Sequence record: OQ973471.1
Strand: one strand, 5' to 3'
DNA from: Escherichia phage AV101
DNA: 64,000 nucleotides
In this document: piece by piece, positions 1,043 to 33,118 of the stretch
Numbering within the stretch: the first letter of the stretch is position 1
Layout: each line of letters begins with the position of its first letter
The notes under the pieces: generated by a model
The model's input: only the letters and a program-made list of their open reading frames with translations
Databases searched by the model: none
What the model was told of the DNA's origin: nothing
Program-made: the position numbers and the translations under genes

Positions 1043-1086
1043 TTTCAAATGGGCGGGGTAATCATACCCCGCCGTGGGTTTATAGA
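1043..1086. repeat. intergenic hairpin element, copy 1 (TTCAAAT-GGCGGGG..CCCCGCC..TTATAG)
   Basis: GC stem GGCGGGG/CCCCGCC with conserved flanks; near-identical copies at 1601-1645 and 16356-16400. Confidence 0.55.
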
Positions 1087-1586
1087 GTAACAAGTGATAC
1101 GGTAAAAACCATCGTCCCGTCTGTTGCCATTTTTCTTGAAACTGGTATGACGCGAGGCTGGCAGAATATCCATTCTTTCTCCATGGACGCCAAGTCCAGC
1201 ATATCCATTTCTGATTCATCGCCTTTGTTCACAAATTTTTCTAGAGAACCATAGACATTAAGCCCCTCCGGGAGTCTGTTTCGATGTTTGTAACAAATGC
1301 GGGCAACAGCTTTGGTTCCGTACGATTTAGAAAATTTTTTGGCCACATGCTTCAGTTCACTGAAGCTAAGACAAGAGTCCCATGTCTGGAACATGTCGCC
1401 TCGTTCAAACATTATCTCTAAACGCGCAACGTCCTCTTTAGGCAACCCACGATAAAGTGTGGTCGTCTGTGGTTCGCGCAATTCTTGCACCAGATCGCGG
1501 ACGGCAGGGGAAACAGTACCGGGGCGCATGATGTGGGACTTATCATGGACGAGGTAAAATAAATCTTGAATTTGTTGATCGGTCAT
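1080..1586 (-). CDS. hypothetical protein
   Basis: ORF with internal start MTDQQIQDLFY; AGGAA RBS upstream. Confidence 0.5.
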   Translation of the reverse strand: MTDQQIQDLFYLVHDKSHIMRPGTVSPAVRDLVQELREPQTTTLYRGLPKEDVARLEIMFERGDMFQTWDSCLSFSELKHVAKKFSKSYGTKAVARICYKHRNRLPEGLNVYGSLEKFVNKGDESEMDMLDLASMEKEWIFCQPRVIPVSRKMATDGTMVFTVSLVTL

Positions 1587-1600
1587 GGTATAGTTCCTGC

Positions 1601-1645
1601 ATTTCAAATAGACGGGGTAATCATACCCCGCCCAAAGTTATAGAA
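1601..1645. repeat. intergenic hairpin element, copy 2
   Basis: Same stem GACGGGGTAATCATACCCCGCC and flanking TTCAAATAG / TTATAG as copy 1. Confidence 0.55.
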
Positions 1646-4783: not shown

Positions 4784-4852
4784 TTGATCTCACTTAACAG
4801 AGACGACGCCCTGTTGGGATTTAATAGCGGTCTTCACAGACATCAGGTTTCC

Positions 4853-4878
4853 CTCAAAACAGGGGAGTCTCCTCCCCT
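4853..4878 (-). terminator. rho-independent terminator downstream of the NAD+ operon
   Basis: Hairpin GGGGAG-GAGA-CTCCCC then TGTTTT on the minus strand. Confidence 0.5.
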
Positions 4879-4885
4879 TCGGTTA

Positions 4886-6550
4886 TCAGATTTGTGAGGC
4901 CAGTTCTGTCACCAGAGGAGCGGCACGGACACGCGCATCTTCCAGCGTTTGGGTGTTGAAGAACTCGCCATCACGATACACCAGCTGGTGCTGGTTGTCG
5001 GCGTCTTGCACCTGATCAAAGGTGATACCGTCAACCAACACTAGTTTACCCTGAGAGTCTTTAATGACTTTAAGGAAACCACGCGCAGACTTTTTAGTCC
5101 CGCCTTTATCGGTCTTCGGCTCTTTGAAGATCTCACGGAATTCACCGTTCACTTTACCAGCCGTGGCTTTCACTGCTGTGCCAGTACTGTCACGGGTGTT
5201 CATCTGGTAGGTGTAGGAACCGATACCGAACACCACGTTGATGGAAGCGAAGTTCCGGTCAGCCAGACGGCTAAAGATCTGGTCTTCACGCGACAGGGTG
5301 ATAGAATCACCGTAGATCAGGCCGATGTGCTCATCCAACAGGAAGTGCCCAGTTTCAGTCTGGGTGCCACCAAAGATCTCCCACAGGCGCTGGATAGAGC
5401 CGACCGCTTCTGAACGGCTGATGATATTACGGTCATCTGCCATCAGAGAGTTGATCGTGCCTTCGCCTGTGATCAGGTGATAGGTGTTCGTCTCTTCGAT
5501 GTGGATGACTTCGGTGCTGCTGGACACGCCGCTGATGTTCAGCGTAGCGCGGTCTTTGAACCCCTCGATACGGTAGCCGCCGACGATGTGCACAGGGTCA
5601 CCAGAGTCAGGGCGGATCACGACTTTACCATTGCGCGCCATGATAATGTCTTTCAGGCGAGGCAGATAGTCGTCGATGACCTGCCAGTAATCCCACGCAT
5701 CAGACACGATGCTGACGATGCCATCAGGATACACGTCCTGCACCAGGCGGCGGAAGGTTTCGAATTCGCCATCCTTCGTGCCCATACACATCACGGCGTG
5801 TTCGGTAGCCGCAACAGAACCAGCAACGACATAATCTTCGTCGATGTCTGCGCCATAATACTCTTCTACGAAGTCCAGGGCAGGGTTGGTGTCGGTGCCT
5901 TTGAAGAACACCAGATGACCGGAACCGGAAGACGCGGCGTCATGCCACCCGCTCATACCACGGAAGGAGAAGTCGTGGCCTTGGTAGTCGATGAACCAAT
6001 GGTCCGGTGATACTCCCGTAGCGAGGGCAGCTTTCACCATCAGTGCCTTGTAATGCAGAGCGATGGTGGCGTTCGTCATCGGCTTCCAGATCTCAGAGCT
6101 GAACACAGTCTCCAGATAGTTGGTCAGCCAGTAGAACTCCGGCAGGGTATTGAACATCACATACACCGGAACACCATACGGACACATGGTGCCTTCAGGC
6201 AGCGCACGGACTTCGATAGGCAGGTAGCCGAGGTCATGCAGGGCTTCAATATGCTCTGTGCCGACGCGGCCTGGACCCAGGACTTTGTTCATGCGACGGG
6301 CATACTTCTTCAGCACCTTGGTCTTCGGGCGCTGGAAGAATGCTTCGTCAAACAGTTCGTGGAACCAGGTCATGAAGCCCTGGATACCCCAGACCACCAC
6401 GCCGTTCTTCGGCAGGTGAGAGTTGAAAAGTTTGTTAGAGCGCGGAGTTCCGTTGGAGAACACCAGCTCACTGCCTTCAGGGAACTGATAGATGTGCCCC
6501 GATTTGTAGAAGTCGATCGCATGGATTGGGTCTAAGTGGCGCATGCTCAT
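4886..6550 (-). CDS. nicotinamide phosphoribosyltransferase family protein (Nampt/NadV-like; possibly Namat of an NAD+ reconstitution pathway)
   Basis: 554-aa protein with strong Nampt-family resemblance across its length (MSMRHLDPIHAIDFYKSGHIYQFPEG... GHDFSFRGMSGWHDAASSGSGHLVFFKGTDT); 4-nt overlap with the upstream PRS-like gene. Confidence 0.85.
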   Translation of the reverse strand: MSMRHLDPIHAIDFYKSGHIYQFPEGSELVFSNGTPRSNKLFNSHLPKNGVVVWGIQGFMTWFHELFDEAFFQRPKTKVLKKYARRMNKVLGPGRVGTEHIEALHDLGYLPIEVRALPEGTMCPYGVPVYVMFNTLPEFYWLTNYLETVFSSEIWKPMTNATIALHYKALMVKAALATGVSPDHWFIDYQGHDFSFRGMSGWHDAASSGSGHLVFFKGTDTNPALDFVEEYYGADIDEDYVVAGSVAATEHAVMCMGTKDGEFETFRRLVQDVYPDGIVSIVSDAWDYWQVIDDYLPRLKDIIMARNGKVVIRPDSGDPVHIVGGYRIEGFKDRATLNISGVSSSTEVIHIEETNTYHLITGEGTINSLMADDRNIISRSEAVGSIQRLWEIFGGTQTETGHFLLDEHIGLIYGDSITLSREDQIFSRLADRNFASINVVFGIGSYTYQMNTRDSTGTAVKATAGKVNGEFREIFKEPKTDKGGTKKSARGFLKVIKDSQGKLVLVDGITFDQVQDADNQHQLVYRDGEFFNTQTLEDARVRAAPLVTELASQI

Positions 6551-7401
6551 TTTACACGTCCTGTATTTTCAGTTTTGAAAGGAAGCCCGTCGGCGGTGAT
6601 GTTCTCCCACCAGACAGTGTCGGCATACACAGCATCATAGATCCCGTCGAAAACAGAGAGACCTTTGCTGAAGATGCCATGGGTAACGAAGAGCGTCATG
6701 TGCTTAGGCTTGTGCTTCTGAAGCTCTTTGCCTAACTCAACGAACGTGCGCCCACCGTCGCAGATATCATCGACCACCACCAGATAGCGGTCTTTGATCA
6801 GTTCAGGGTTTGTAACACTCACCCCAATGATCTCACCAGTCTTGGTATCGCGGTTCTTATGGCCGTAGACAACAGGAACACCGTCCAACGATAGGCTGAG
6901 GGCTTCGGTCTTCTTAGTCGCGCCGCCGTCAGGAGCTACCAACACAGCGTTGTTCCCACGGATGAACCAGCCCAGATACTGACGCACGATGTAATCTTGC
7001 GGGACAACATGAACGTTGTTGATCAGAGAAGACACAACATGGCTGTGAGGATCTTTGATTACCACGCGGTCAAAGTTCATGCTATTGATGAATTCAGCCG
7101 CCCACTTCACAGACAGAGGCTCACCGAAGTCACAATGGCGGTCCTGGCGAGCATACGGGAAGTAAGGGATATACGCATGGAATGTCGTCAGACGGTCCAC
7201 GTTACTCAGACCACGAACGGCGTTTACCAGAAGCGCCAGCTCAATGAAGTCGGCTGATGATTTGATGTGAGCATCAATCACCACGTTCTGAACGTGGCCG
7301 ATAGGGATACCAGACTTTTGGATCTTGATATGTTCCTCACCACCTGGGAAGGTGAAGTGTTTGTAGAACACATCTTGGTCGTTCAATTTCAAACGAAACA
7401 T
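6547..7401 (-). CDS. ribose-phosphate pyrophosphokinase family protein (PRPP-synthetase-like; possibly ADP-ribose pyrophosphokinase Adps)
   Basis: PRPP-binding loop YLVVVDDICDGGRTF and PRS-like N-terminal half; GAGG RBS; co-oriented and overlapping with the Nampt-like gene. Confidence 0.8.
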   Translation of the reverse strand: MFRLKLNDQDVFYKHFTFPGGEEHIKIQKSGIPIGHVQNVVIDAHIKSSADFIELALLVNAVRGLSNVDRLTTFHAYIPYFPYARQDRHCDFGEPLSVKWAAEFINSMNFDRVVIKDPHSHVVSSLINNVHVVPQDYIVRQYLGWFIRGNNAVLVAPDGGATKKTEALSLSLDGVPVVYGHKNRDTKTGEIIGVSVTNPELIKDRYLVVVDDICDGGRTFVELGKELQKHKPKHMTLFVTHGIFSKGLSVFDGIYDAVYADTVWWENITADGLPFKTENTGRVK

Positions 7402-11052: not shown

Positions 11053-11277
11053 TCAGACGATCTTACCACCGTCACAAGGCCGAGTATCACCGGAGTTGTA
11101 TGCCAGCATCCCCTGCATCAACAAACGTCTTGGCCCAGAAACTGATTTCTGTTTCCTCAACGTACTGCAGAACCGAGTAGTGCCTGGGTAAGGAGTGTAC
11201 ACGAGACGACCTTGCATACGAGCTTCCAGTAGGAATTCATCTGTGGCTTTGCGTAACTTGAATAATTTCCAGCTCAT
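11053..11277 (-). CDS. hypothetical protein (doubtful)
   Basis: 74-aa ORF with ATGA overlap to the HNH gene stop; no other support. Confidence 0.25.
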   Translation of the reverse strand: MSWKLFKLRKATDEFLLEARMQGRLVYTPYPGTTRFCSTLRKQKSVSGPRRLLMQGMLAYNSGDTRPCDGGKIV

Positions 11278-12203
11278 TTTTCACCCTTGTATCTTTTTAA
11301 CCATTTGACGCATTTTAATGGTTCCCACCCTTTATTGAAACGTTCGATAATGCTGTTTGTCGCATTAAAAGCCTTCAAATCCTTTGTTCCGTACACATGC
11401 ATGAGGGCTTCCGCTCTTTTCATCGTCTTCAAAGATTGCATAAGCAAATCAGCTTTTGACCAATACACATCATTTTCGGGGTTCCATTTCGCTTTCTCCC
11501 AAGGCAACTTCACTAACATACCTTTCTGGGCGTTTTCTTTCTGTTTGGCTCGTTGTTCCGGTGTGAAAGAATTGGTTAAGTCCTTCCCATAATTGGGATT
11601 GAGTTTCCCGAGTTTTGCTTGTCTAGAACGCTCCGAAAATTGCTTCAAATCTGTATTGGCGCGACGCCGCTCTAAAACCTGCCTTTTATATTCAGGGTCA
11701 GAAGCCATTCTTTCATGGATTTTCATCAATCCTTTGGTAATTTTCTTGACTTGCTCTGGAGTTCTCTTATATCCATATTGGGGGTTATTCTTTCCTCTCC
11801 TTCCGTACATTGGGTTGTCTTTACCCACAAACCGAGAAACCCCTTTCCATTGTAAAGATAGTTGTTCGCTGAATTTAATTCTGAAACTTTCATATAAATG
11901 AGAATTAAACCGAATCCCCGATTTATTTCTTCTTCCCCCCTTTCTCATAGCCACCACAGCATACACCATTCTCGTGTTTGGGAAAGCCAATGCCAAGCAC
12001 AAATGCACAAGATAATGTTGCCTGCCTGTTAATCGAACCAAATTGTTCTTATCTTTAAAATATTCAGGGAACATGCTCTTGGGAAGGATGTGGTGTAATT
12101 CAGTGTAGTCACCATCAGAATATTTGAAAGATTGAACCATCCTCAAATACTTCTTGATGAAATGCGGTTTACCGCCTTTAGAAACCAACAATTCATAAAA
12201 CAT
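11274..12203 (-). CDS. HNH homing endonuclease with NUMOD3-like repeats
   Basis: HNH core ELHHILPKSMFPEY...NLVRLTGRQHYLVH; repeated GKDNPMYG / GKNNPQYG / KLNPNYGKD motifs; AT-rich codon usage unlike neighbours. Confidence 0.8.
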   Translation of the reverse strand: MFYELLVSKGGKPHFIKKYLRMVQSFKYSDGDYTELHHILPKSMFPEYFKDKNNLVRLTGRQHYLVHLCLALAFPNTRMVYAVVAMRKGGRRNKSGIRFNSHLYESFRIKFSEQLSLQWKGVSRFVGKDNPMYGRRGKNNPQYGYKRTPEQVKKITKGLMKIHERMASDPEYKRQVLERRRANTDLKQFSERSRQAKLGKLNPNYGKDLTNSFTPEQRAKQKENAQKGMLVKLPWEKAKWNPENDVYWSKADLLMQSLKTMKRAEALMHVYGTKDLKAFNATNSIIERFNKGWEPLKCVKWLKRYKGEK

Positions 12204-22746: not shown

Positions 22747-23169
22747 TTACAAAAGGCGCTTGGTCTTCGGCTTACCCATTAGAGTGATATCCACAGGGAG
22801 GCCAGCTTTCTTGCAACGGTTGATCATGTCCAGGGTGCCAGTGGACGAACCATCCCACATCGCAATCGGATACACTTCCAGCTTGGTCTGCCTGACGAGA
22901 TCCAATGCCTTGTCTAACATGTCCTGATTGCGTTTGTTGCCCATCCCTTTCCCATACTTTTCATAATAGCTCGGAGGTATTGGCATAGGAGTGATATGAA
23001 CATAATTGATTTCAGCCCAATCACGGCAAATCGTGTCGACACCCGTGGCCTCACCCTCAATCAGTGTATAGACCTCACGAGGATCCAAGAGTTCGTCCAG
23101 CTTGGCGAATACCTTATCCCGCTCGGTGATTGAGCGGGAACCCGTAATGAGAACGATATACTTCTTCAT
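22747..23169 (-). CDS. SLOG-superfamily (DUF2493/YpsA-like) Rossmann-fold nucleotide-binding protein
   Basis: Paired glycine-rich motifs ITGSRS and IEGEATGVDT typical of SMF/DprA-LOG proteins; start at MKKYIVLITG. Confidence 0.5.
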   Translation of the reverse strand: MKKYIVLITGSRSITERDKVFAKLDELLDPREVYTLIEGEATGVDTICRDWAEINYVHITPMPIPPSYYEKYGKGMGNKRNQDMLDKALDLVRQTKLEVYPIAMWDGSSTGTLDMINRCKKAGLPVDITLMGKPKTKRLL

Positions 23170-23174
23170 AGAAC

Positions 23175-23519
23175 TCACAGCGCCCCAAGATTGCCGATTA
23201 CGTACAGGGAGCACAGAGGAGTGCCTGACGAACGCGGTTCGATCGTCATCCCGCTCAGGCGGATCAGTTCCAGTAAGCCGTCAGTGGTCCGATACGCGCG
23301 TGTCGAACCGTTCGGTCGATATAGCTCCAGCTCAGTTCGCCCTTCCTTTATTGCATTGCGAATGCGAGTGAACACGCTGTGGTCGCCGAACTTCTGTTTC
23401 AGAATATCCAGTTTGGTGGTCAGGCGGCGCGTTTTGCGTGGCTTGCGCTCACTCGGCTTTTCGAATTTGACGATGTGGGGGATCTCCACGGATTTGTTCA
23501 GTTTGGTGTCTGCTGCCAT
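23175..23519 (-). CDS. hypothetical basic protein
   Basis: 114-aa ORF with a Lys/Arg-rich segment; upstream hairpin. Confidence 0.45.
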   Translation of the reverse strand: MAADTKLNKSVEIPHIVKFEKPSERKPRKTRRLTTKLDILKQKFGDHSVFTRIRNAIKEGRTELELYRPNGSTRAYRTTDGLLELIRLSGMTIEPRSSGTPLCSLYVIGNLGAL

Positions 23520-24725: not shown

Positions 24726-25049
24726 TCAAAGAATGATGTGTTCGTCGATATCGGACTGCGTTGCAATCTCCCAGCGGACGATGTTCTCGGTTGTGATGAA
24801 ATCACGGTTCAGGTGAGAGGCTGGTACATACACCATCGTATTGACCATGAAGTAGCGCTGCTCATTGTTCCAGGAGTCAACATAAGCCTCAATAAGGCAC
24901 ACTTCGATCACTTCGCCTTTCGGATTCTTCACAGTCTTTTTCAGATACATGACACAGCCCTCGGTAGTAGACGGGGCAATAATACCTCTCACCCCGTTAT
25001 TGAAATGTTCTTTTAGTTCAAGACATATTTGATCAGTCCACAATTCCAA
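24726..25049 (-). CDS. hypothetical protein
   Basis: 107-aa ORF; start uncertain. Confidence 0.4.
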   Translation of the reverse strand: MELWTDQICLELKEHFNNGVRGIIAPSTTEGCVMYLKKTVKNPKGEVIEVCLIEAYVDSWNNEQRYFMVNTMVYVPASHLNRDFITTENIVRWEIATQSDIDEHIIL

Positions 25050-26485
25050 ATCCTGACCAGCCCGGCTTCGGTTGCTAACTGGCTTTCTGTTTTGCCTTCT
25101 ACGTCATACCCCATGCGAGCAAATGAACCTTTTCTGAAACCGAATTTGTGCTCACGCATAAATGTGCCAGGCTTGTGATATTTGTAGTCTGGCTTCTGTA
25201 CTTCCTCTTCTACGAATCCGTGGGATAGGTAAATGTTGGACAACCTGCTTGCAACACACCTATCCCCAAAGGAATAGATTTTGGTGTCGGCAAATTTTCT
25301 TCTGAAGTGTGAAAGAAGTTTACTGAATGCCCCGTGGCAATCATTAGAGGCAAATCTGACTAATTCCAGGCCATCTTTCCTTTTAGTGAATAGCATCACG
25401 GCTTGTATGACCCCACTCTTGTCAATTAACGATAAATGGTGGGTAGAAGAAACGGAACCTTGTATGTGGTGGTTGTCTAAAAACTCCCTCAAGCCGCTTA
25501 TATTCCCCCAAACGACTTTGTGTTGGCGAGCATATGACGCAGGCGTTTTAATGCCAAGTTTAGCTTTCAGAAGAGATTTGACCACTTCCTGTTTCTCAAC
25601 CCATTCATCTTCCCAGATGTGAATCAACTGGATACCCTGAGATTCACATATTTCAGTCTTTTCCAGGTGATAATGTTTCTCTTTAAAAACTTCTGAATGC
25701 CAGTACAGGCCATTAAATTCAATCGCCAATTTGTGTTCAGGGCAATAGATATCCAGTTGTTTACCGGATAATATACTGTAATCAGAAACAGTGTTTACAA
25801 CTCCCATTGAGGTGAGAAACTCGGATATTTCCTTTTCATAAGAAGATTTCTTGTTCCTGATAGAACCATTGCTGAACAACGCACGTTTTAGTATGTTCGA
25901 GTTTTTCATAGGGTTGTCAACACCATAACGTTCTTGTAACGTTGCCAACGCCTTCTCCCTCACACCAGGTAATTGTAGTGTGGAGCAGCTTCCGTATTTG
26001 GATATATTCGAAGTCTCTATGACTTTCCGACCAATCCCACCTTTACACATAGAAACCTGATAACATTCTTCAGAACAATATGTTCTGTAATCTTTATTAT
26101 TGATGTAAAAGTTGGTTTCCTTGGAACACACCGGGCATATTTTCACGGCTCTATTGTACAGCCAAGCTGTGACTTTACAAGCCAAATCTTGTAGGGTGTT
26201 GTGGGTATTGGCGAACACTAAAAGGTCTACATTGATGTGCTTCATAAGCAGTTCAGATTTGCATTTTTGGATATCCAATTTGTTGTTCTTGGTAAACATA
26301 TATTTGTAGAAAAATTGGCGATATGATTCCTCGTCAGATAATTCATTCACTGCTTCAAGGAAACCTTCCGGGAGGTTCTTTAGGGTGTTCGATGCGAAGG
26401 TCTTGCAAGCATCTGAACAAAATTTCTTATCTTTCCTGGATGCTTTGAACTGTTCATGGCAGACACTACAGATTACCTGATACAT
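25013..26485 (-). CDS. putative free-standing homing endonuclease: N-terminal zinc ribbons plus PD-(D/E)XK (Vsr/DUF559-like) nuclease core
   Basis: CSVCHEQF..CSDAC and CPVCSKE..CSEEC ribbons; QLDIYCPEHKLAIEFNGLYWHSE is a PD-(D/E)XK signature; AT-rich; own GGAGGAGAA RBS and TATACT -10-like box. Confidence 0.55.
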   Translation of the reverse strand: MYQVICSVCHEQFKASRKDKKFCSDACKTFASNTLKNLPEGFLEAVNELSDEESYRQFFYKYMFTKNNKLDIQKCKSELLMKHINVDLLVFANTHNTLQDLACKVTAWLYNRAVKICPVCSKETNFYINNKDYRTYCSEECYQVSMCKGGIGRKVIETSNISKYGSCSTLQLPGVREKALATLQERYGVDNPMKNSNILKRALFSNGSIRNKKSSYEKEISEFLTSMGVVNTVSDYSILSGKQLDIYCPEHKLAIEFNGLYWHSEVFKEKHYHLEKTEICESQGIQLIHIWEDEWVEKQEVVKSLLKAKLGIKTPASYARQHKVVWGNISGLREFLDNHHIQGSVSSTHHLSLIDKSGVIQAVMLFTKRKDGLELVRFASNDCHGAFSKLLSHFRRKFADTKIYSFGDRCVASRLSNIYLSHGFVEEEVQKPDYKYHKPGTFMREHKFGFRKGSFARMGYDVEGKTESQLATEAGLVRIWNCGLIKYVLN

Positions 26486-26534
26486 AATTATTCTCCTCCA
26501 TATGGTATCTAGTATAACCTGTTCGATAATATGA

Positions 26535-26562
26535 ACAAATAAAAACCCCGCCGAAGCGGGGT
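26535..26562 (-). terminator. rho-independent terminator (UUCG tetraloop on the minus transcript)
   Basis: AAAAACCCCGC-CGAA-GCGGGGTTT downstream of the capsid gene. Confidence 0.6.
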
Positions 26563-26589
26563 TTGTCAGGGTTAAGGACAACTGTTCTA

Positions 26590-27924
26590 TTAGAACAGGC
26601 CTTTGATCAGCCCTTTACGGAAGTACACGTTGGTGTCCTTGGCGATACCATCCGCAGTCACATAGACCTGTGGATCCTGGTTCGCTGGGATCTGAACGAA
26701 TGGGTTAGCACAAATCCCGTAGCGGGTCTTGAACGCCATACGTGGTGCGAAGGTGGTTTCACCCTGGGTGCGGTACATTTCCAGCGGCACGTATGGCGCG
26801 AAGAAGATACCAGCATCCAGTGCGGTTGCACCTTTGTATGCCAGGGTGATGTATTCTGCTACTGCATACGGGTCGATGTAGACACGCATACCGTTAGACA
26901 GCACACCAGCGAAGGTCTGGCCAGTCGGATCAATCGCCAGCTTGGTGTTTTCCTGCAGAGCCGGAGCATAATCCAGCATGCCGGACATCGCCAGAGCGGA
27001 TGCTACGTTCGGGGAGCACAGAACACGGTTGCCTTTACCACGACGGGTGTCAACACCGATGCCGTTCGCTTCAACTTCCAGCATGAAAGTCATGTACTTC
27101 CATTTTTCCAGCGCCCAACGACCGGAGATGTCAGTGGAGATGTCTACGATACCGTTGGTGCCGAATTTTTTGAAGCGTACTGCGCTGAAGTTCATGGTGC
27201 GGATAAACTCACGGTTCATCTCTGCCTGAATTTCAGTTACCATCACGTCGGACAGGATGCTGTCAACGTCTTCGCCGTGGATCGCCATCATGTCCTGGCG
27301 CAGTTCGTGGCTGTAGTCAGCGTACAGGCCGCGAGACTTCGCAGTCACGGTTGCTTTCTGAACGGTGATACCGACACGTGCCCATGGGTTGGTGGTGGTG
27401 CCCAGCAGTTCAGCGTCGGAAGTTGACATGCCTTTACCGATGGTGGTGGTAGCAGCGCCGGAACCTTCGATCTCAGTCTGGGTAAAGCCAGATGGGTCGC
27501 CAGCCTGAGCAGTGTCGTCACCAGAGTAGCCAGAATCAGCTTCCTGCATGAACAGTTCTTTACGGGAATGTTGGGTGTTGGAGCCGCCGTCTGAAATGCC
27601 CTGGCGAGCACGCAGAGCAAAGATCTGACCGTCAGGACCAGACAGCGGCTGAACGCCGAAGAAGTCCATCGCGATGTTGACCGGAGCCAGACGTTTGGCC
27701 ATGTCGATCAGGACTGGCTGCCATTTGCCCACAGAGGCGTTCACGGAGCCAGGAGCGTCGGATTCGCCCAGGTTTTTGGCGTTCCACTCAGCCTGGTTTT
27801 GCAGCAGACGGACGGCAACGTTTTCGGCAGAAAGCGGCTGGATGCTTTCAGATTCTTTCTGAAGAACTGGCAGCCACTGCTCGCGCATTTGTTCGGTAAC
27901 AAGTTTCTTAGCCATGATGGTCAT
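26590..27924 (-). CDS. major capsid protein (T4 gp23-like)
   Basis: 444 aa; by-eye resemblance to gp23-type capsid proteins; position after scaffold and protease as in T4; strong terminator downstream. Confidence 0.75.
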   Translation of the reverse strand: MTIMAKKLVTEQMREQWLPVLQKESESIQPLSAENVAVRLLQNQAEWNAKNLGESDAPGSVNASVGKWQPVLIDMAKRLAPVNIAMDFFGVQPLSGPDGQIFALRARQGISDGGSNTQHSRKELFMQEADSGYSGDDTAQAGDPSGFTQTEIEGSGAATTTIGKGMSTSDAELLGTTTNPWARVGITVQKATVTAKSRGLYADYSHELRQDMMAIHGEDVDSILSDVMVTEIQAEMNREFIRTMNFSAVRFKKFGTNGIVDISTDISGRWALEKWKYMTFMLEVEANGIGVDTRRGKGNRVLCSPNVASALAMSGMLDYAPALQENTKLAIDPTGQTFAGVLSNGMRVYIDPYAVAEYITLAYKGATALDAGIFFAPYVPLEMYRTQGETTFAPRMAFKTRYGICANPFVQIPANQDPQVYVTADGIAKDTNVYFRKGLIKGLF

Positions 27925-32419: not shown

Positions 32420-33118
32420 TTACACAATTCTAATTAGCTGCCAACCCGTCGTATTCAAACGCTCTGCGGTCGCAGTTTTCCTATGATACACAGACGGTGG
32501 TGGAACTGGAATACCCTTGTCGATGTAATCATAGAGTGCTGAATATTTAAGTCCCAACCTCTCCACATATTCACGACAGTTCCCGTGGATTTCGTGTTCT
32601 TCGCCGGAAGGAGATACCAATTTGAATCGCTTGGCATTGGAGTTCTTGGATCCGGTTCTTGCTTTGGCGAATTCAGACAGGCTCTTTGAGAAAGAACGCT
32701 TGACCCCGACCTTGCAGTGTATTATCTCTCCTGTCGACCATCTAGGGTCATCACAGTCTACGAGGCCGATACGCTCTCCGGTCGATGCATCAATAGCGCC
32801 GGTCTTGCCAGTGAATGTTGCACCATCACCGCCCCAAGTTTTGTTGTACCCTTTCTGAGTTGACATGTGGGTGCCATGCTGCTTGATCAGGATGATCTCT
32901 AATTCTTTAAGATCTTTTATGGACTTGGTCTGGGCAATCACTTGGAACGAGAATGATTCTTCACCGTGCTTGCGAATAGCTTGATGGATACCGTAGTCGG
33001 AACCATTTCGAGCGCTGTTACAATGTTCCCACCACCTATGGCTTGGGTCTCTTGTGGTGATACCGATATACGCTTTCCGATTGGCGAGATTTGCAATTTT
33101 ATAAACACTTCCGATCAT
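32420..33118 (-). CDS. GIY-YIG homing endonuclease (Seg-like)
   Basis: VYKIANLANRKAYIGITTRDPSHRWWEH plus downstream Arg/His/Glu positions; inserted between sheath and tube genes. Confidence 0.8.
   Translation of the reverse strand: MIGSVYKIANLANRKAYIGITTRDPSHRWWEHCNSARNGSDYGIHQAIRKHGEESFSFQVIAQTKSIKDLKELEIILIKQHGTHMSTQKGYNKTWGGDGATFTGKTGAIDASTGERIGLVDCDDPRWSTGEIIHCKVGVKRSFSKSLSEFAKARTGSKNSNAKRFKLVSPSGEEHEIHGNCREYVERLGLKYSALYDYIDKGIPVPPPSVYHRKTATAERLNTTGWQLIRIV

What the first reader, a model, noticed from the sequence alone, without database searches (positions are those of the whole stretch)
25013..26562. Third endonuclease, of a different family, beside the capsid gene
Zinc ribbons plus a PD-(D/E)XK core (LDIYCPEHKLAIEFNGLYWHSE), AT-rich, with its own promoter-like TATACT and strong RBS. 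Together with the HNH and GIY-YIG genes the window carries three nuclease families, suggesting heavy mobile-element traffic.
Basis: partly seen in the sequence, partly recalled or inferred. Interest (0 to 1): 0.45.

Follow-up and report, generated by a model that had tools for sequence, protein, structure and literature searches.

The report
Hef-like homing endonuclease beside capsid gene
This is an ordinary, already-named selfish gene of T4-like phages, a "Hef-like" homing endonuclease sitting just after the capsid gene; its only under-appreciated feature is a tail domain resembling the DNA-modifying enzyme Mom of phage Mu.

Summary
Window 25013..26485 (minus strand) is an intact 490-aa gene. 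It is AT-rich (40.8% GC against 48% for the window). It lies directly after the major-capsid-gene terminator and has a strong Shine-Dalgarno and a conserved TATACT block.

It is not new. It is 98.8% identical to an annotated "homing endonuclease" of Escherichia phage RPN242 and 87% identical to F-LimVII, the Hef-like endonuclease named in Dickeya phage LIMEstone1 in 2012.

The architecture has four parts:
- two Cys4 zinc ribbons;
- a DUF7487 helical repeat;

That GNAT domain matches the phage Mu Mom family profile-to-profile (95%, E 3e-8). It keeps the residues aligned to Mom's essential ones.

Mobility is supported. The slot after the capsid gene holds no endonuclease, this one, a different Hef-like one, or a GIY-YIG one in sister phages. 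Synonymous divergence of the endonuclease gene disagrees with that of its flanks. dN/dS is about 0.1.

The HNH gene (11274..12203) and the GIY-YIG gene (32420..33118) are also real.

Verdict: a known kind, of low interest. Whether the Mom-like domain modifies DNA is untested.

The parts
25013..26485 (-). Hef-like homing endonuclease gene (490 aa; stop codon at 25013-25015), orthologue of F-LimVII
   Evidence: ORF and sequence. 98.8% aa identity to RPN242 gp141 'homing endonuclease' and 87% to F-LimVII. phrog_3339 at E 2e-155. dN/dS 0.095 against LIMEstone1.
26405..26470 (-). Zinc ribbon 1 (C6, C9, C23, C27)
   Evidence: Cysteine positions. Two short strands at residues 2-5 and 12-15 in the AF2 model, pLDDT >90. 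Present in only about a quarter of family members.
26063..26137 (-). Zinc ribbon 2 (C117, C120, C137, C141), YacG-like
   Evidence: C117 and C120 are conserved in 111 and 103 of 120 homologues. Weak Pfam YacG hit at residues 117-144, E 0.005. The family profile touches YacG structures at E about 1.
25871..26020 (-). DUF7487-type helical repeat (residues 156-205), presumed DNA-targeting module
   Evidence: Pfam PF24308 at 23.9 bits, below its 27-bit cut-off, in this protein. Strong in homologues, up to 257 bits and in several copies. The consensus repeat 'KYGV...K...T...YG' appears in alignments A1/A2.
25556..25861 (-). Vsr-like 'EDxHD' nuclease domain (residues 209-310). Key residues: E217, D245, E256, N258, H263, H273, K276, E292, D293.
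25016..25555 (-). GNAT-fold, Mom-like C-terminal domain (residues 311-490). Key residues: H340, R377, S388, D408, R409, Y419.
26493..26499 (-). Shine-Dalgarno GGAGGAG, 7 nt upstream of the ATG
   Evidence: Read from the sequence. GGAG is conserved in the orthologues.
26501..26538 (-). Promoter-like leader: TTGTTC (26538-26533), 16-nt spacer, TATACT (26516-26511), inside the conserved block GGTTATACTAGATACCATA (26519-26501)
   Evidence: The block is 100% identical in all six phages with this gene, while the spacer varies. It falls below the sigma-70 scan threshold at 8 of 12. Function is inferred, not shown.
26543..26564 (-). Intrinsic terminator of the major capsid gene; it forms the upstream boundary of the endonuclease cassette
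   Evidence: 9-bp stem with 6 GC pairs, followed by a T-run. It is shared by phages with and without the endonuclease, and homology breaks right after the T-run. It is annotated as a terminator in LIMEstone1.
24951..25009 (-). Repeated intergenic hairpin cassette (TTTCAATAACGGGGYGAGAGGTATTATTGCCCCGTCTAC...); it forms the downstream boundary of the endonuclease cassette
   Evidence: The same element precedes each small ORF downstream in Ag3, RPN242, PC3 and SNUABM02. Two copies flank the extra 201-nt ORF of RPN242 that the window lacks.
26590..27924 (-). Major capsid protein gene (gp23-like), the upstream neighbour
   Evidence: Annotated as such in all relatives.

Best explanation
The gene is a free-standing homing endonuclease gene of the Hef family and the orthologue of F-LimVII. 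It occupies the variable slot between the capsid-gene terminator and a repeated intergenic hairpin cassette in an Aglimvirinae (ViI/Ag3-like, Ackermannviridae) phage.

Shown here:
- the identity of the gene, its four-module architecture and its intact nuclease residues;
- purifying selection on the whole gene;
- patchy, phylogenetically discordant occupancy of the slot.

Inferred by analogy with phage U5 Hef and the T4 seg/mob genes:
- During mixed infection the protein is made from its own weak promoter or by read-through of the terminator.
- The zinc-ribbon/DUF7487 modules, and probably the GNAT domain, position it on the DNA of a relative that lacks the gene, near the capsid-gene/downstream junction.
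- The Vsr-like active site (D245 and E256 binding Mg2+, H263 as general base, E217/N258/H273/K276 assisting) cuts that DNA.
- Recombinational repair from the endonuclease-bearing genome copies the gene and its flanking markers into the cut genome.

The Mom-like GNAT domain most likely serves as a DNA-binding or base-flipping recognition module. Whether it still transfers an acyl or aminoacyl group is open.
For: Identity. tblastn gives 98.8% to RPN242 'homing endonuclease', 87% to F-LimVII, and 35.6% over residues 201-487 to the U5 Hef protein (E 9e-31). phrog_3339 scores E 2e-155. LIMEstone1's authors classed F-LimVII as a free-standing Hef-like endonuclease. Hef of U5 is reviewed as an endonuclease that cleaves nrdB. 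Taylor et al. placed Hef-type enzymes in the Vsr-like EDxHD family.

Nuclease. All eight nuclease positions I scored (E217, D245, E256, N258 as N/D, H263, H273, K276, D293) are kept together in 109 of 120 homologues.

Mobility.
- Ag3 has three small ORFs where the window has the gene. Homology breaks at 25005 and 26541.
- PC3 has a different 621-aa Hef-like gene in the slot.
- SW16-7 has a GIY-YIG-type gene there (phrog_314 at 2e-31).
- About 24 of 287 related phage records carry this orthologue.
- Synonymous divergence (dS) of the endonuclease gene disagrees with its flanks. Window vs RPN242: 0.02, against 0.11 for the capsid gene and 0.82 for the gene two places downstream. LIMEstone1 vs CECAV_050: 0.12, against 0.28 and 1.31. 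ChubbyThor and Ag3 have near-identical flanks but differ in presence or absence.
- dS is mosaic within the gene.

Selection. dN/dS is 0.095 overall and 0.06-0.18 per domain.

Free-standing. No group I intron or other Rfam family is present.

Precedent. T4 also carries a homing endonuclease gene (segD) between genes 23 and 24.
Against: - No cleavage site, target or homing event is known for F-LimVII or any Ackermannviridae Hef-like enzyme. Function is transferred from a 35%-identical protein.
- I found no sequence polymorphism in the capsid-gene 3' end or terminator that tracks presence or absence of the gene, so the target and the immunity mechanism cannot be read from the sequences.
- The cassette is bounded by a repeated intergenic element. 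Ordinary homologous recombination between repeats could therefore shuffle it without any endonuclease action.
- The strong conservation of Mom-type active-site residues is not required by a pure homing model.
Confidence: 0.8

Rival explanations
1. The protein is a single-chain restriction-modification-like enzyme. The Mom-like GNAT domain chemically modifies adenines (momylation or a related acyl/aminoacyl transfer) on the phage's own DNA at the recognition site. The fused nuclease then cuts unmodified DNA of the host or of competing phages. This is the reading Iyer et al. (2021) gave to Mom-plus-restriction-fold fusions in jumbo phages. It can coexist with homing, with modification serving as self-immunity.
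For: - Profile-profile match of the C-domain to the Mom family: 95.2%, E 2.7e-8, with controls at or below 0.5%.
- Pfam 'Mom' scores above its cut-off in some homologues, and no other GNAT family is hit. 14 of the 120 best homologues carry a precomputed PF25680 hit.
- The residues aligned to Mom's essential R111, S124, D149 and R151, plus H58 and Y159, are R377, S388, D408, R409, H340 and Y419 here. H340, R377 and Y419 are invariant in 120 of 120, and 84 of 120 members keep all six.
- R111 (R101 in the older numbering) is Mom-specific rather than a general GNAT residue.
- Both families have an insertion between the last strands at the position of Mom's essential HTH-like insert.
- The domain's dN/dS is 0.08-0.18.
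Against: - The window protein itself gives no Pfam Mom hit at E <= 1. A narrow Mom HMM scores homologues at only 10-25 bits.
- The Mom crystal structure 8BV8 is not among the top 50-60 structural matches, which are generic GNATs. I could not confirm that 8BV8 is in the fold libraries.
- The essential Ser is Gly in the LIMEstone1 orthologue and absent in 23 of 120 members. The only experimentally studied member, U5 Hef, has Asn at the D149 position.
- Mom's dimerisation residue W48 is not conserved (S330).
- The multi-copy, patchy, intergenic distribution is typical of selfish homing genes rather than defence genes.
Confidence: 0.15
2. The gene is a domesticated or decaying former homing endonuclease. 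It no longer moves by cleavage and is carried along, and shuffled, by recombination between the repeated intergenic hairpin cassettes and the conserved capsid-gene terminator. It may be retained for some host-beneficial nuclease role, such as exclusion of competitors or host DNA breakdown.
For: - The cassette boundaries coincide with a shared terminator and a repeated roughly 55-nt element. The window differs from RPN242 by exact loss of one small ORF between two repeat copies.
- A 233-aa truncated copy, 99% identical to the C-terminal part, exists on another contig.
Against: - The ORF is intact and the catalytic residues are complete.
- dN/dS of about 0.1 equals that of the capsid gene.
- The endonuclease gene is far more similar between some phage pairs than their flanks are, which implies recent directed spread rather than passive carriage.
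Confidence: 0.05

Closest known systems
F-LimVII of Dickeya phage LIMEstone1 (Adriaenssens et al. 2012, PMC3296691) and its annotated copies in RPN242, ZQ1, CECAV_050 and ChubbyThor
   Same: Orthologue: 87-99% amino-acid identity, the same 490-491 aa length, and the same position directly downstream of the major capsid gene terminator on the same strand.
   Different: The genes downstream differ. The window lacks the 201-nt ORF found in RPN242. The LIMEstone1 copy has Gly where the window protein has Ser388, the Mom S124 position. ChubbyThor's label 'HNH endonuclease' is a misnomer, since no HNH motif or hit is present.
Hef of T-even phage U5 (Sandegren, Nord & Sjoberg 2005), the founding, experimentally studied member
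   Same: It shares the nuclease plus C-terminal GNAT-like core: 35.6% identity over residues 201-487. D245, E256, H263, H273, K276, H340, R377, S388 and Y419 are all conserved. It is a free-standing gene between conserved genes.
   Different: It sits at a different locus (nrdA/nrdB) with a different target (nrdB). Its N-terminal region is different and lacks the two Cys4 ribbons. It has N instead of D at positions 293 and 408. I could not read the primary paper, which is not held.
I-Bth0305I, prototype of the 'EDxHD' Vsr-like homing endonuclease family (Taylor et al. 2011; PDB 3R3P)
   Different: I-Bth0305I is intron-encoded. Its DNA-binding part is N-terminal NUMOD/HTH, and its nuclease is C-terminal with no GNAT domain. 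The fifth motif residue (D222) has no unambiguous counterpart here. Alignments place it at Y272, H273 or E275, and position 275 is N, E or D across the family.
Mom of phage Mu (Gly-tRNA-dependent DNA N6-adenine aminoacyltransferase; PDB 8BV8; PMC13219725, PMC7261163)
   Same: GNAT fold, a profile-profile match, aligned essential residues, and an insertion before the last strands.
   Different: Mom is a stand-alone 241-aa dimer with no nuclease. The similarity is remote, about 16% identity. The window protein fails Pfam's Mom model. The dimer residue W48 is not kept. No modification activity is known for any Hef-family protein.
Mom-plus-restriction-endonuclease-fold fusions of jumbo phages (Iyer, Anantharaman, Krishnan, Burroughs & Aravind 2021, PMC7824862)
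   Same: Apparently the same architecture and probably the same family. tblastn with the window protein hits several copies in jumbo phages such as AR9, MIJ3 and PTm5. That paper describes Mom domains fused to REase-fold DNases.
   Different: That paper reads them as restriction-modification-like conflict systems and does not connect them to Hef homing endonucleases. I did not check their accession lists against this family.
T4 segD (GIY-YIG) between genes 23 and 24
   Same: A free-standing homing endonuclease gene in the slot just after the major capsid gene.
   Different: A different nuclease family, in the opposite orientation to its neighbours, and uncharacterised.

Membership tests
Hef-like homing endonucleases (PHROG 3339; Sandegren 2005) | Sequence homology to Hef across both the nuclease and the C-terminal domain | tested here: met
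   phrog_3339 at E 2e-155. U5 Hef: 35.6% identity over residues 201-487, E 9e-31. Key residues are shared.
Hef-like homing endonucleases (PHROG 3339; Sandegren 2005) | Free-standing gene between conserved genes, with presence/absence polymorphism among close relatives | tested here: met
   Four occupancy states of the slot after the capsid gene. dS discordance with the flanks. No intron RNA.
Hef-like homing endonucleases (PHROG 3339; Sandegren 2005) | Site-specific cleavage of the endonuclease-free allele and biased inheritance in mixed infection | not testable with these tools
   Needs biochemistry and phage crosses. No target could be inferred from the junction alignments.
EDxHD / Vsr-like homing endonuclease family (I-Bth0305I) | Vsr-like variant of the restriction-endonuclease fold | tested here: met
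EDxHD / Vsr-like homing endonuclease family (I-Bth0305I) | Motif residues E, D, x (N/H) and H | tested here: met
   E217, D245, N258 and H263 align to E170, D196, N208 and H213. They are conserved in 113, 120, 105 (+12 D) and 120 of 120 homologues.
EDxHD / Vsr-like homing endonuclease family (I-Bth0305I) | Final Asp of the motif (D222 in I-Bth0305I, D97 in Vsr) | tested here: inconclusive
   Alignments place it at E275 or Y272. Position 275 is N, E or D in 103 of 120. The adjacent H273 and K276 are invariant. No coordinates were available to check 3-D proximity.
Canonical PD-(D/E)XK nucleases | Literal D...(D/E)-x-K motif | tested here: not met
   The strand motif is E256-F-N258, not E-x-K. 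An invariant Lys (K276) lies in the following helix. The fold superfamily is the same.
Vsr mismatch-repair endonuclease | Reaches the curated family score | tested here: not met
   TIGR00632: 19.6 bits against a cut-off of 97.85. Pfam Vsr: 18.3 bits against 27.
Mom family (Pfam PF25680; DNA N6-adenine aminoacyltransferase) | GNAT fold | tested here: met
Mom family (Pfam PF25680; DNA N6-adenine aminoacyltransferase) | Reaches Pfam's gathering score for PF25680 | tested here: not met
   No hit at E <= 1 for the window protein. Some homologues pass: P0041 at 28.2 bits and P0083 at 29.0 bits, against a cut-off of 27.1.
Mom family (Pfam PF25680; DNA N6-adenine aminoacyltransferase) | Detectable homology to Mom beyond the generic GNAT fold | tested here: met
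   hhalign of family profiles: 95.2%, E 2.7e-8, 117 columns. Global mode: 91%. Reversed, shuffled and unrelated-domain controls: 0.2-0.5%. No other GNAT Pfam family is hit in the homologues.
Mom family (Pfam PF25680; DNA N6-adenine aminoacyltransferase) | Essential residues R111, S124, D149 and R151 (plus H58 and Y159) | tested here: met
   They are aligned to R377, S388, D408, R409, H340 and Y419. Essentiality comes from PMC13219725 and PMC7261163. The mapping is by alignment only. Ser is lost in 23 of 120 relatives, including LIMEstone1's orthologue.
Mom family (Pfam PF25680; DNA N6-adenine aminoacyltransferase) | Closest solved structure is Mom (8BV8) | tested here: inconclusive
Mom family (Pfam PF25680; DNA N6-adenine aminoacyltransferase) | Transfers glycine from Gly-tRNA to N6 of adenine in dsDNA | not testable with these tools
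   Needs an enzyme assay or LC-MS.
HNH or GIY-YIG homing endonucleases | HNH or GIY-YIG catalytic motif | tested here: not met
   No such Pfam or NCBIfam hit. PHROG families labelled 'HNH endonuclease' that match (phrog_559) align over the Hef-type regions and are mislabelled by annotation transfer.

The most novel reading that the evidence does not exclude
Hef-type 'homing endonucleases', including this one, may be bifunctional. Their conserved Mom-like GNAT domain would be a working DNA-base (adenine N6) acyl- or aminoacyl-transferase that marks the phage's own copy of the target site. Self-immunity of this large family of selfish nucleases would then rest on a site-specific DNA hypermodification rather than on target-sequence differences. 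That would unite the 'Hef homing endonuclease' literature with the 'Mom-REase fusion' prediction. It would also imply sparse, so far unnoticed adenine modifications in many phage genomes.
Probability: 0.15. Interest if true: 0.7.

Novelty: already known. Interest (0 to 1): 0.22.

Why it matters
As found, it matters little. It adds one more copy of a named selfish gene, and it documents that the slot after the capsid gene is a hotspot where at least three kinds of homing endonuclease gene alternate in Aglimvirinae phages. These phages are used for biocontrol and therapy, so it is useful to know that this gene is selfish cargo rather than a virulence or host-range factor.

The wider point concerns a family of about 2000 detectable members. 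One literature files them as 'Hef-like homing endonucleases'. Another files the same architecture as 'Mom-nuclease fusions'. Neither reading of the GNAT domain has been tested. With Mom's chemistry solved in 2026, the question has become directly testable.

Tried and rejected
- Start codon. I rejected the TTG-extended 522-aa ORF of the mechanical list because it runs through the terminator and no orthologue uses it.
- Sigma-70 promoter. The scan found none upstream of the gene. The promoter claim rests only on a conserved block.
- Intron or other RNA. Rfam gave nothing near gathering scores, so the gene is free-standing.
- Paralogues in the window. There are none.
- Mom similarity, single sequence. 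A1 profile against the single Mu Mom sequence gave only 15.7%. It became convincing only profile-to-profile.
- Mom similarity, HMM against sequence. This was weak in both directions, and the family profile against PDB sequences did not find 8BV8.
- Mom similarity, structure. Three fold searches never listed 8BV8. The afdb50 library was unavailable.
- C-domain homologue search. The last search, with the C-domain alone, returned only one truncated copy.
- Target site. I looked for an immunity polymorphism in the capsid-gene 3' end and terminator that tracks presence of the gene. There is none. Two haplotypes exist but do not correlate with occupancy.
- Primary literature. The Hef paper (PMC1275590) and Iyer 2009 (PMC2995806) are not held.
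- HNH reading. ChubbyThor's 'HNH endonuclease' annotation is not supported by any motif or family hit.
Full report
WHAT IS THERE

The finding's interval holds one long ORF on the minus strand. The mechanical list gives 25013..26581 from a TTG. The credible start is the ATG at 26485, which sits 7 nt after GGAGGAG, and every orthologue is annotated at that length, 490-491 aa. The stretch from 26486 to 26562, also included in the finding, is the 5' leader plus the intrinsic terminator of the upstream major capsid gene. That terminator is a 9-bp stem with a T-run at 26564-26543.

The gene is AT-rich. It is 40.8% GC, against 48.0% for the window and 50-58% across the capsid gene.

The quoted peptide LDIYCPEHKLAIEFNGLYWHSE is residues 244-265. 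The two Cys4 sets are C6/C9/C23/C27 and C117/C120/C137/C141.

WHERE THE WINDOW COMES FROM

A 4-kb query around the gene matches 287 phage records, all ViI/Ag3-like Ackermannviridae. The best matches, at about 95% nucleotide identity, are Escherichia phages ZQ1, YX22, RPN242 and LHE287 of the subfamily Aglimvirinae.

The gene order is gp21 protease, gp22 scaffold, gp23 capsid, this gene, then small ORFs. All lie on the minus strand.

WHAT THE PROTEIN IS

It is a known protein.
- tblastn gives 98.8% identity to RPN242 gp141, annotated 'homing endonuclease'.
- It gives 87% to 'putative homing endonuclease F-LimVII' of the Dickeya LIMEstone-type phages.
- It gives 30-40% over the C-terminal 55-65% of the protein to proteins annotated 'Hef' or 'Hef-like homing endonuclease' in T-even, Campylobacter, Acinetobacter, Klebsiella, Xanthomonas and jumbo phages. 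These include Hef of phage U5 itself (35.6% over residues 201-487, E 9e-31).
- PHROG 3339 'homing endonuclease' scores E 2e-155.

The LIMEstone1 paper lists F-LimVII (ORF137) as a free-standing Hef-like endonuclease, one of 14 homing endonucleases in that genome. The T4 mobile-DNA review describes U5 hef as a unique endonuclease that cleaves nrdB. I could not read the primary Hef paper.

DOMAIN ARCHITECTURE

AlphaFold2 with a 120-sequence alignment gives mean pLDDT 94. The only weak segment is at 206-208, which is a linker.

N-terminal region. Residues 1-205 hold the two zinc ribbons, helices and one DUF7487-type repeat. That repeat scores below the Pfam cut-off here but strongly in homologues, where it is often present in several copies.

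Nuclease domain. Residues 209-310 are a Vsr-like nuclease.
- The only significant solved-structure relative by sequence is 3R3P, the catalytic domain of homing endonuclease I-Bth0305I (E 1e-3 for the single sequence; 5e-8 for the family profile).
- E217, D245, N258 and H263 align with E170, D196, N208 and H213 of I-Bth0305I.
- D245, E256, H263, H273 and K276 are invariant in 120 homologues.

Taylor et al. (2011) had already placed Hef-type enzymes in this 'EDxHD' family. The family's fifth residue (D222) has no unambiguous counterpart here. Alignments place it at E275 or Y272, and the invariant H273 and K276 sit beside it.

The strand reads E-F-N, not E-x-K.

Pfam finds nothing there in the window protein. 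In several homologues the same region passes the gathering score of PF25680, the 'Mom protein family', and it hits no other GNAT family. Fourteen of the 120 best homologues carry that precomputed hit.

I built a profile of the Hef-family C-domain and a profile of Mu Mom plus 107 homologues. hhalign gives 95.2% probability, E 2.7e-8, over 117 columns. Reversed or column-shuffled Mom profiles, and the unrelated nuclease domain, give 0.2-0.5%.

The alignment maps Mom residues as follows:
- H58 to H340
- R111 to R377
- S124 to S388
- D149 to D408
- R151 to R409
- Y159 to Y419

According to the 2026 structural and mechanistic paper (PDB 8BV8) and the 2020 study, R111, S124, D149 and R151 are essential. 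R111 is specific to Mom rather than to GNATs in general.

H340, R377 and Y419 are invariant in 120 of 120 family members, and D408 is kept in 118. All six positions are kept together in 84 of 120. Both families also have an insertion before the last strands, where Mom has its essential HTH-like insert.

Caveats:
- The similarity is remote, about 16% identity. HMM-against-sequence scores are only 10-25 bits.
- 8BV8 never appeared among the top structural matches, and I cannot tell whether it is in those libraries.
- The Ser is Gly in the LIMEstone1 orthologue.
- U5 Hef, the one studied member, has Asn at the D149 position.

Iyer et al. (2021) had already noted Mom domains fused to restriction-fold DNases in jumbo phages. 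They read these as restriction-modification-like systems. That paper does not mention homing endonucleases.

IS IT MOBILE?

The slot between the capsid-gene terminator and the next small ORF has at least four states in close relatives:
- Ag3 has three small ORFs and no endonuclease. Homology to the window breaks at 25005 and resumes at 26541.
- The F-LimVII type is present in the window, RPN242, ChubbyThor, CECAV_050, pSal-SNUABM-02 and the Dickeya phages.
- PC3 and its relatives have a different 621-aa Hef-like gene, about 50% identical, whose last 300 nt are 86% identical to the window's.
- SW16-7 has a 283-aa GIY-YIG-type gene (phrog_314 at 2e-31; SegE_GIY-YIG at 23.8 bits).

About 24 of 287 related records carry this orthologue.

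Synonymous divergence of the endonuclease gene disagrees with that of its flanks:

| Pair | Endonuclease gene dS | Capsid gene dS | Gene two places downstream dS |
|---|---|---|---|
| window vs RPN242 | 0.02 | 0.11 | 0.82 |
| LIMEstone1 vs CECAV_050 | 0.12 | 0.28 | 1.31 |
| window vs SNUABM-02 | 0.18 | 0.36 | 0.89 |

ChubbyThor and Ag3 have nearly identical flanks (0.15 and 0.03) yet differ in presence or absence. Within the gene, dS is mosaic.

The gene is under purifying selection. dN/dS is 0.095 against LIMEstone1, equal to the capsid gene, and 0.06-0.18 in each of the three regions for the well-diverged pairs.

The cassette boundaries are sharp. Upstream, the boundary falls immediately after the terminator's T-run. 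Downstream, it falls at a repeated hairpin-containing intergenic element that precedes every small ORF in the region.

No intron-like RNA is present. In T4 the same slot, between genes 23 and 24, holds segD.

EXPRESSION SIGNALS

TATACT lies in a 19-nt block that is identical in all six phages with this gene. A conserved TTTGTTCAT lies 16 nt upstream of it, while the spacer between them varies. This argues for a functional element that travels with the gene. It falls short of the sigma-70 scan threshold and is unverified.

MECHANISM, WITH SHOWN AND INFERRED STEPS MARKED

Shown:
- identity, architecture and intact nuclease residues;
- purifying selection;
- a mobile, discordant distribution.

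Inferred from U5 Hef and the T4 seg/mob genes: in mixed infection the enzyme cuts endonuclease-free relatives near the capsid-gene junction, and recombinational repair copies the gene and its flanking markers into the cut genome.

Open questions are the cleavage site, how the phage's own DNA is spared, and what the Mom-like domain does. I favour a role in DNA binding or base flipping. I give about 0.15 to the idea that it still modifies DNA as a self-immunity mark, because the catalytic Ser and Asp are dispensable in some members.

COMPARISON AND VERDICT

The other two nuclease genes are real: HNH at 11274..12203 and GIY-YIG at 32420..33118.

The object itself is already known and annotated, so interest is low. 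The only lead worth passing on is the untested Mom-like domain, which is shared by roughly 2000 Hef-family proteins.

Noticed in passing
window 24951-25009 (minus strand); also L004 25342-25392 and 25600-25650; L002, L003, L009: A roughly 55-nt intergenic cassette (TTTCAATAACGGGGYGAGAGGTATTATTGCCCCGTCTAC..., a GC hairpin with TATTAT in the loop) is repeated upstream of each small ORF downstream of the capsid gene in Aglimvirinae. The window lacks one 201-nt ORF that RPN242 has between two copies. From memory, it resembles the promoter-stem-loop shuffling cassettes described for T4-type phages.
   Followed up: partly
L010 2169-3020 (Salmonella phage SW16-7); L003 2759-4624 (Escherichia phage PC3): The same slot after the capsid gene holds a GIY-YIG-type homing endonuclease in SW16-7 and a different 621-aa Hef-like one in PC3. 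The 3' 300 nt of the PC3 gene are 86% identical to the window gene, which indicates recombination between distinct endonuclease genes.
   Followed up: partly
window 11274-12203 (-): HNH homing endonuclease gene: 309 aa, 39.8% GC, 'ELHHILPKS', a NUMOD3 motif, phrog_655 at 7e-61. It is labelled only 'hypothetical protein' in RPN242.
   Followed up: partly
window 32420-33118 (-): GIY-YIG homing endonuclease gene between the tail tube and tail sheath genes (Pfam PF01541; phrog_314/5123).
   Followed up: partly
window 4838-7250: A 2.4-kb segment absent from RPN242. It carries a NAPRTase-family gene (4886-6550) and most of a PRPP-synthetase-like gene (6547-7401), which together look like an NAD-salvage pair.
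   Followed up: no
window 1074-1582: A segment absent from RPN242. ORF 1080-1607(-) matches the C-terminal part of phrog_832 'RNA polymerase ADP-ribosylase' (E 2.5e-15).
   Followed up: no
P0241 (233 aa, on a 49.6-kb contig): A truncated protein 99% identical to the C-terminal Mom-like part of the window endonuclease. It may be a split or decaying copy in a relative.
   Followed up: no
L007 1493-2965 (Shigella phage ChubbyThor gp188): The orthologue is annotated 'putative HNH endonuclease'. No HNH motif or family hit supports that label. PHROG 559, labelled 'HNH endonuclease', also aligns over Hef-type regions.
   Followed up: yes
window 26470-26600 (-): The read-through RNA folds more stably than shuffles (z -3.5). 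The capsid-gene 3' end pairs with the promoter-like region, and a small hairpin overlaps the start codon. This might limit translation from read-through transcripts, as in some T4 endonuclease genes.
   Followed up: no
window 22747-23214 (-): The ORF has a YspA/cpYpsA-related SLOG domain (Pfam PF10686, E 2e-10).
   Followed up: no
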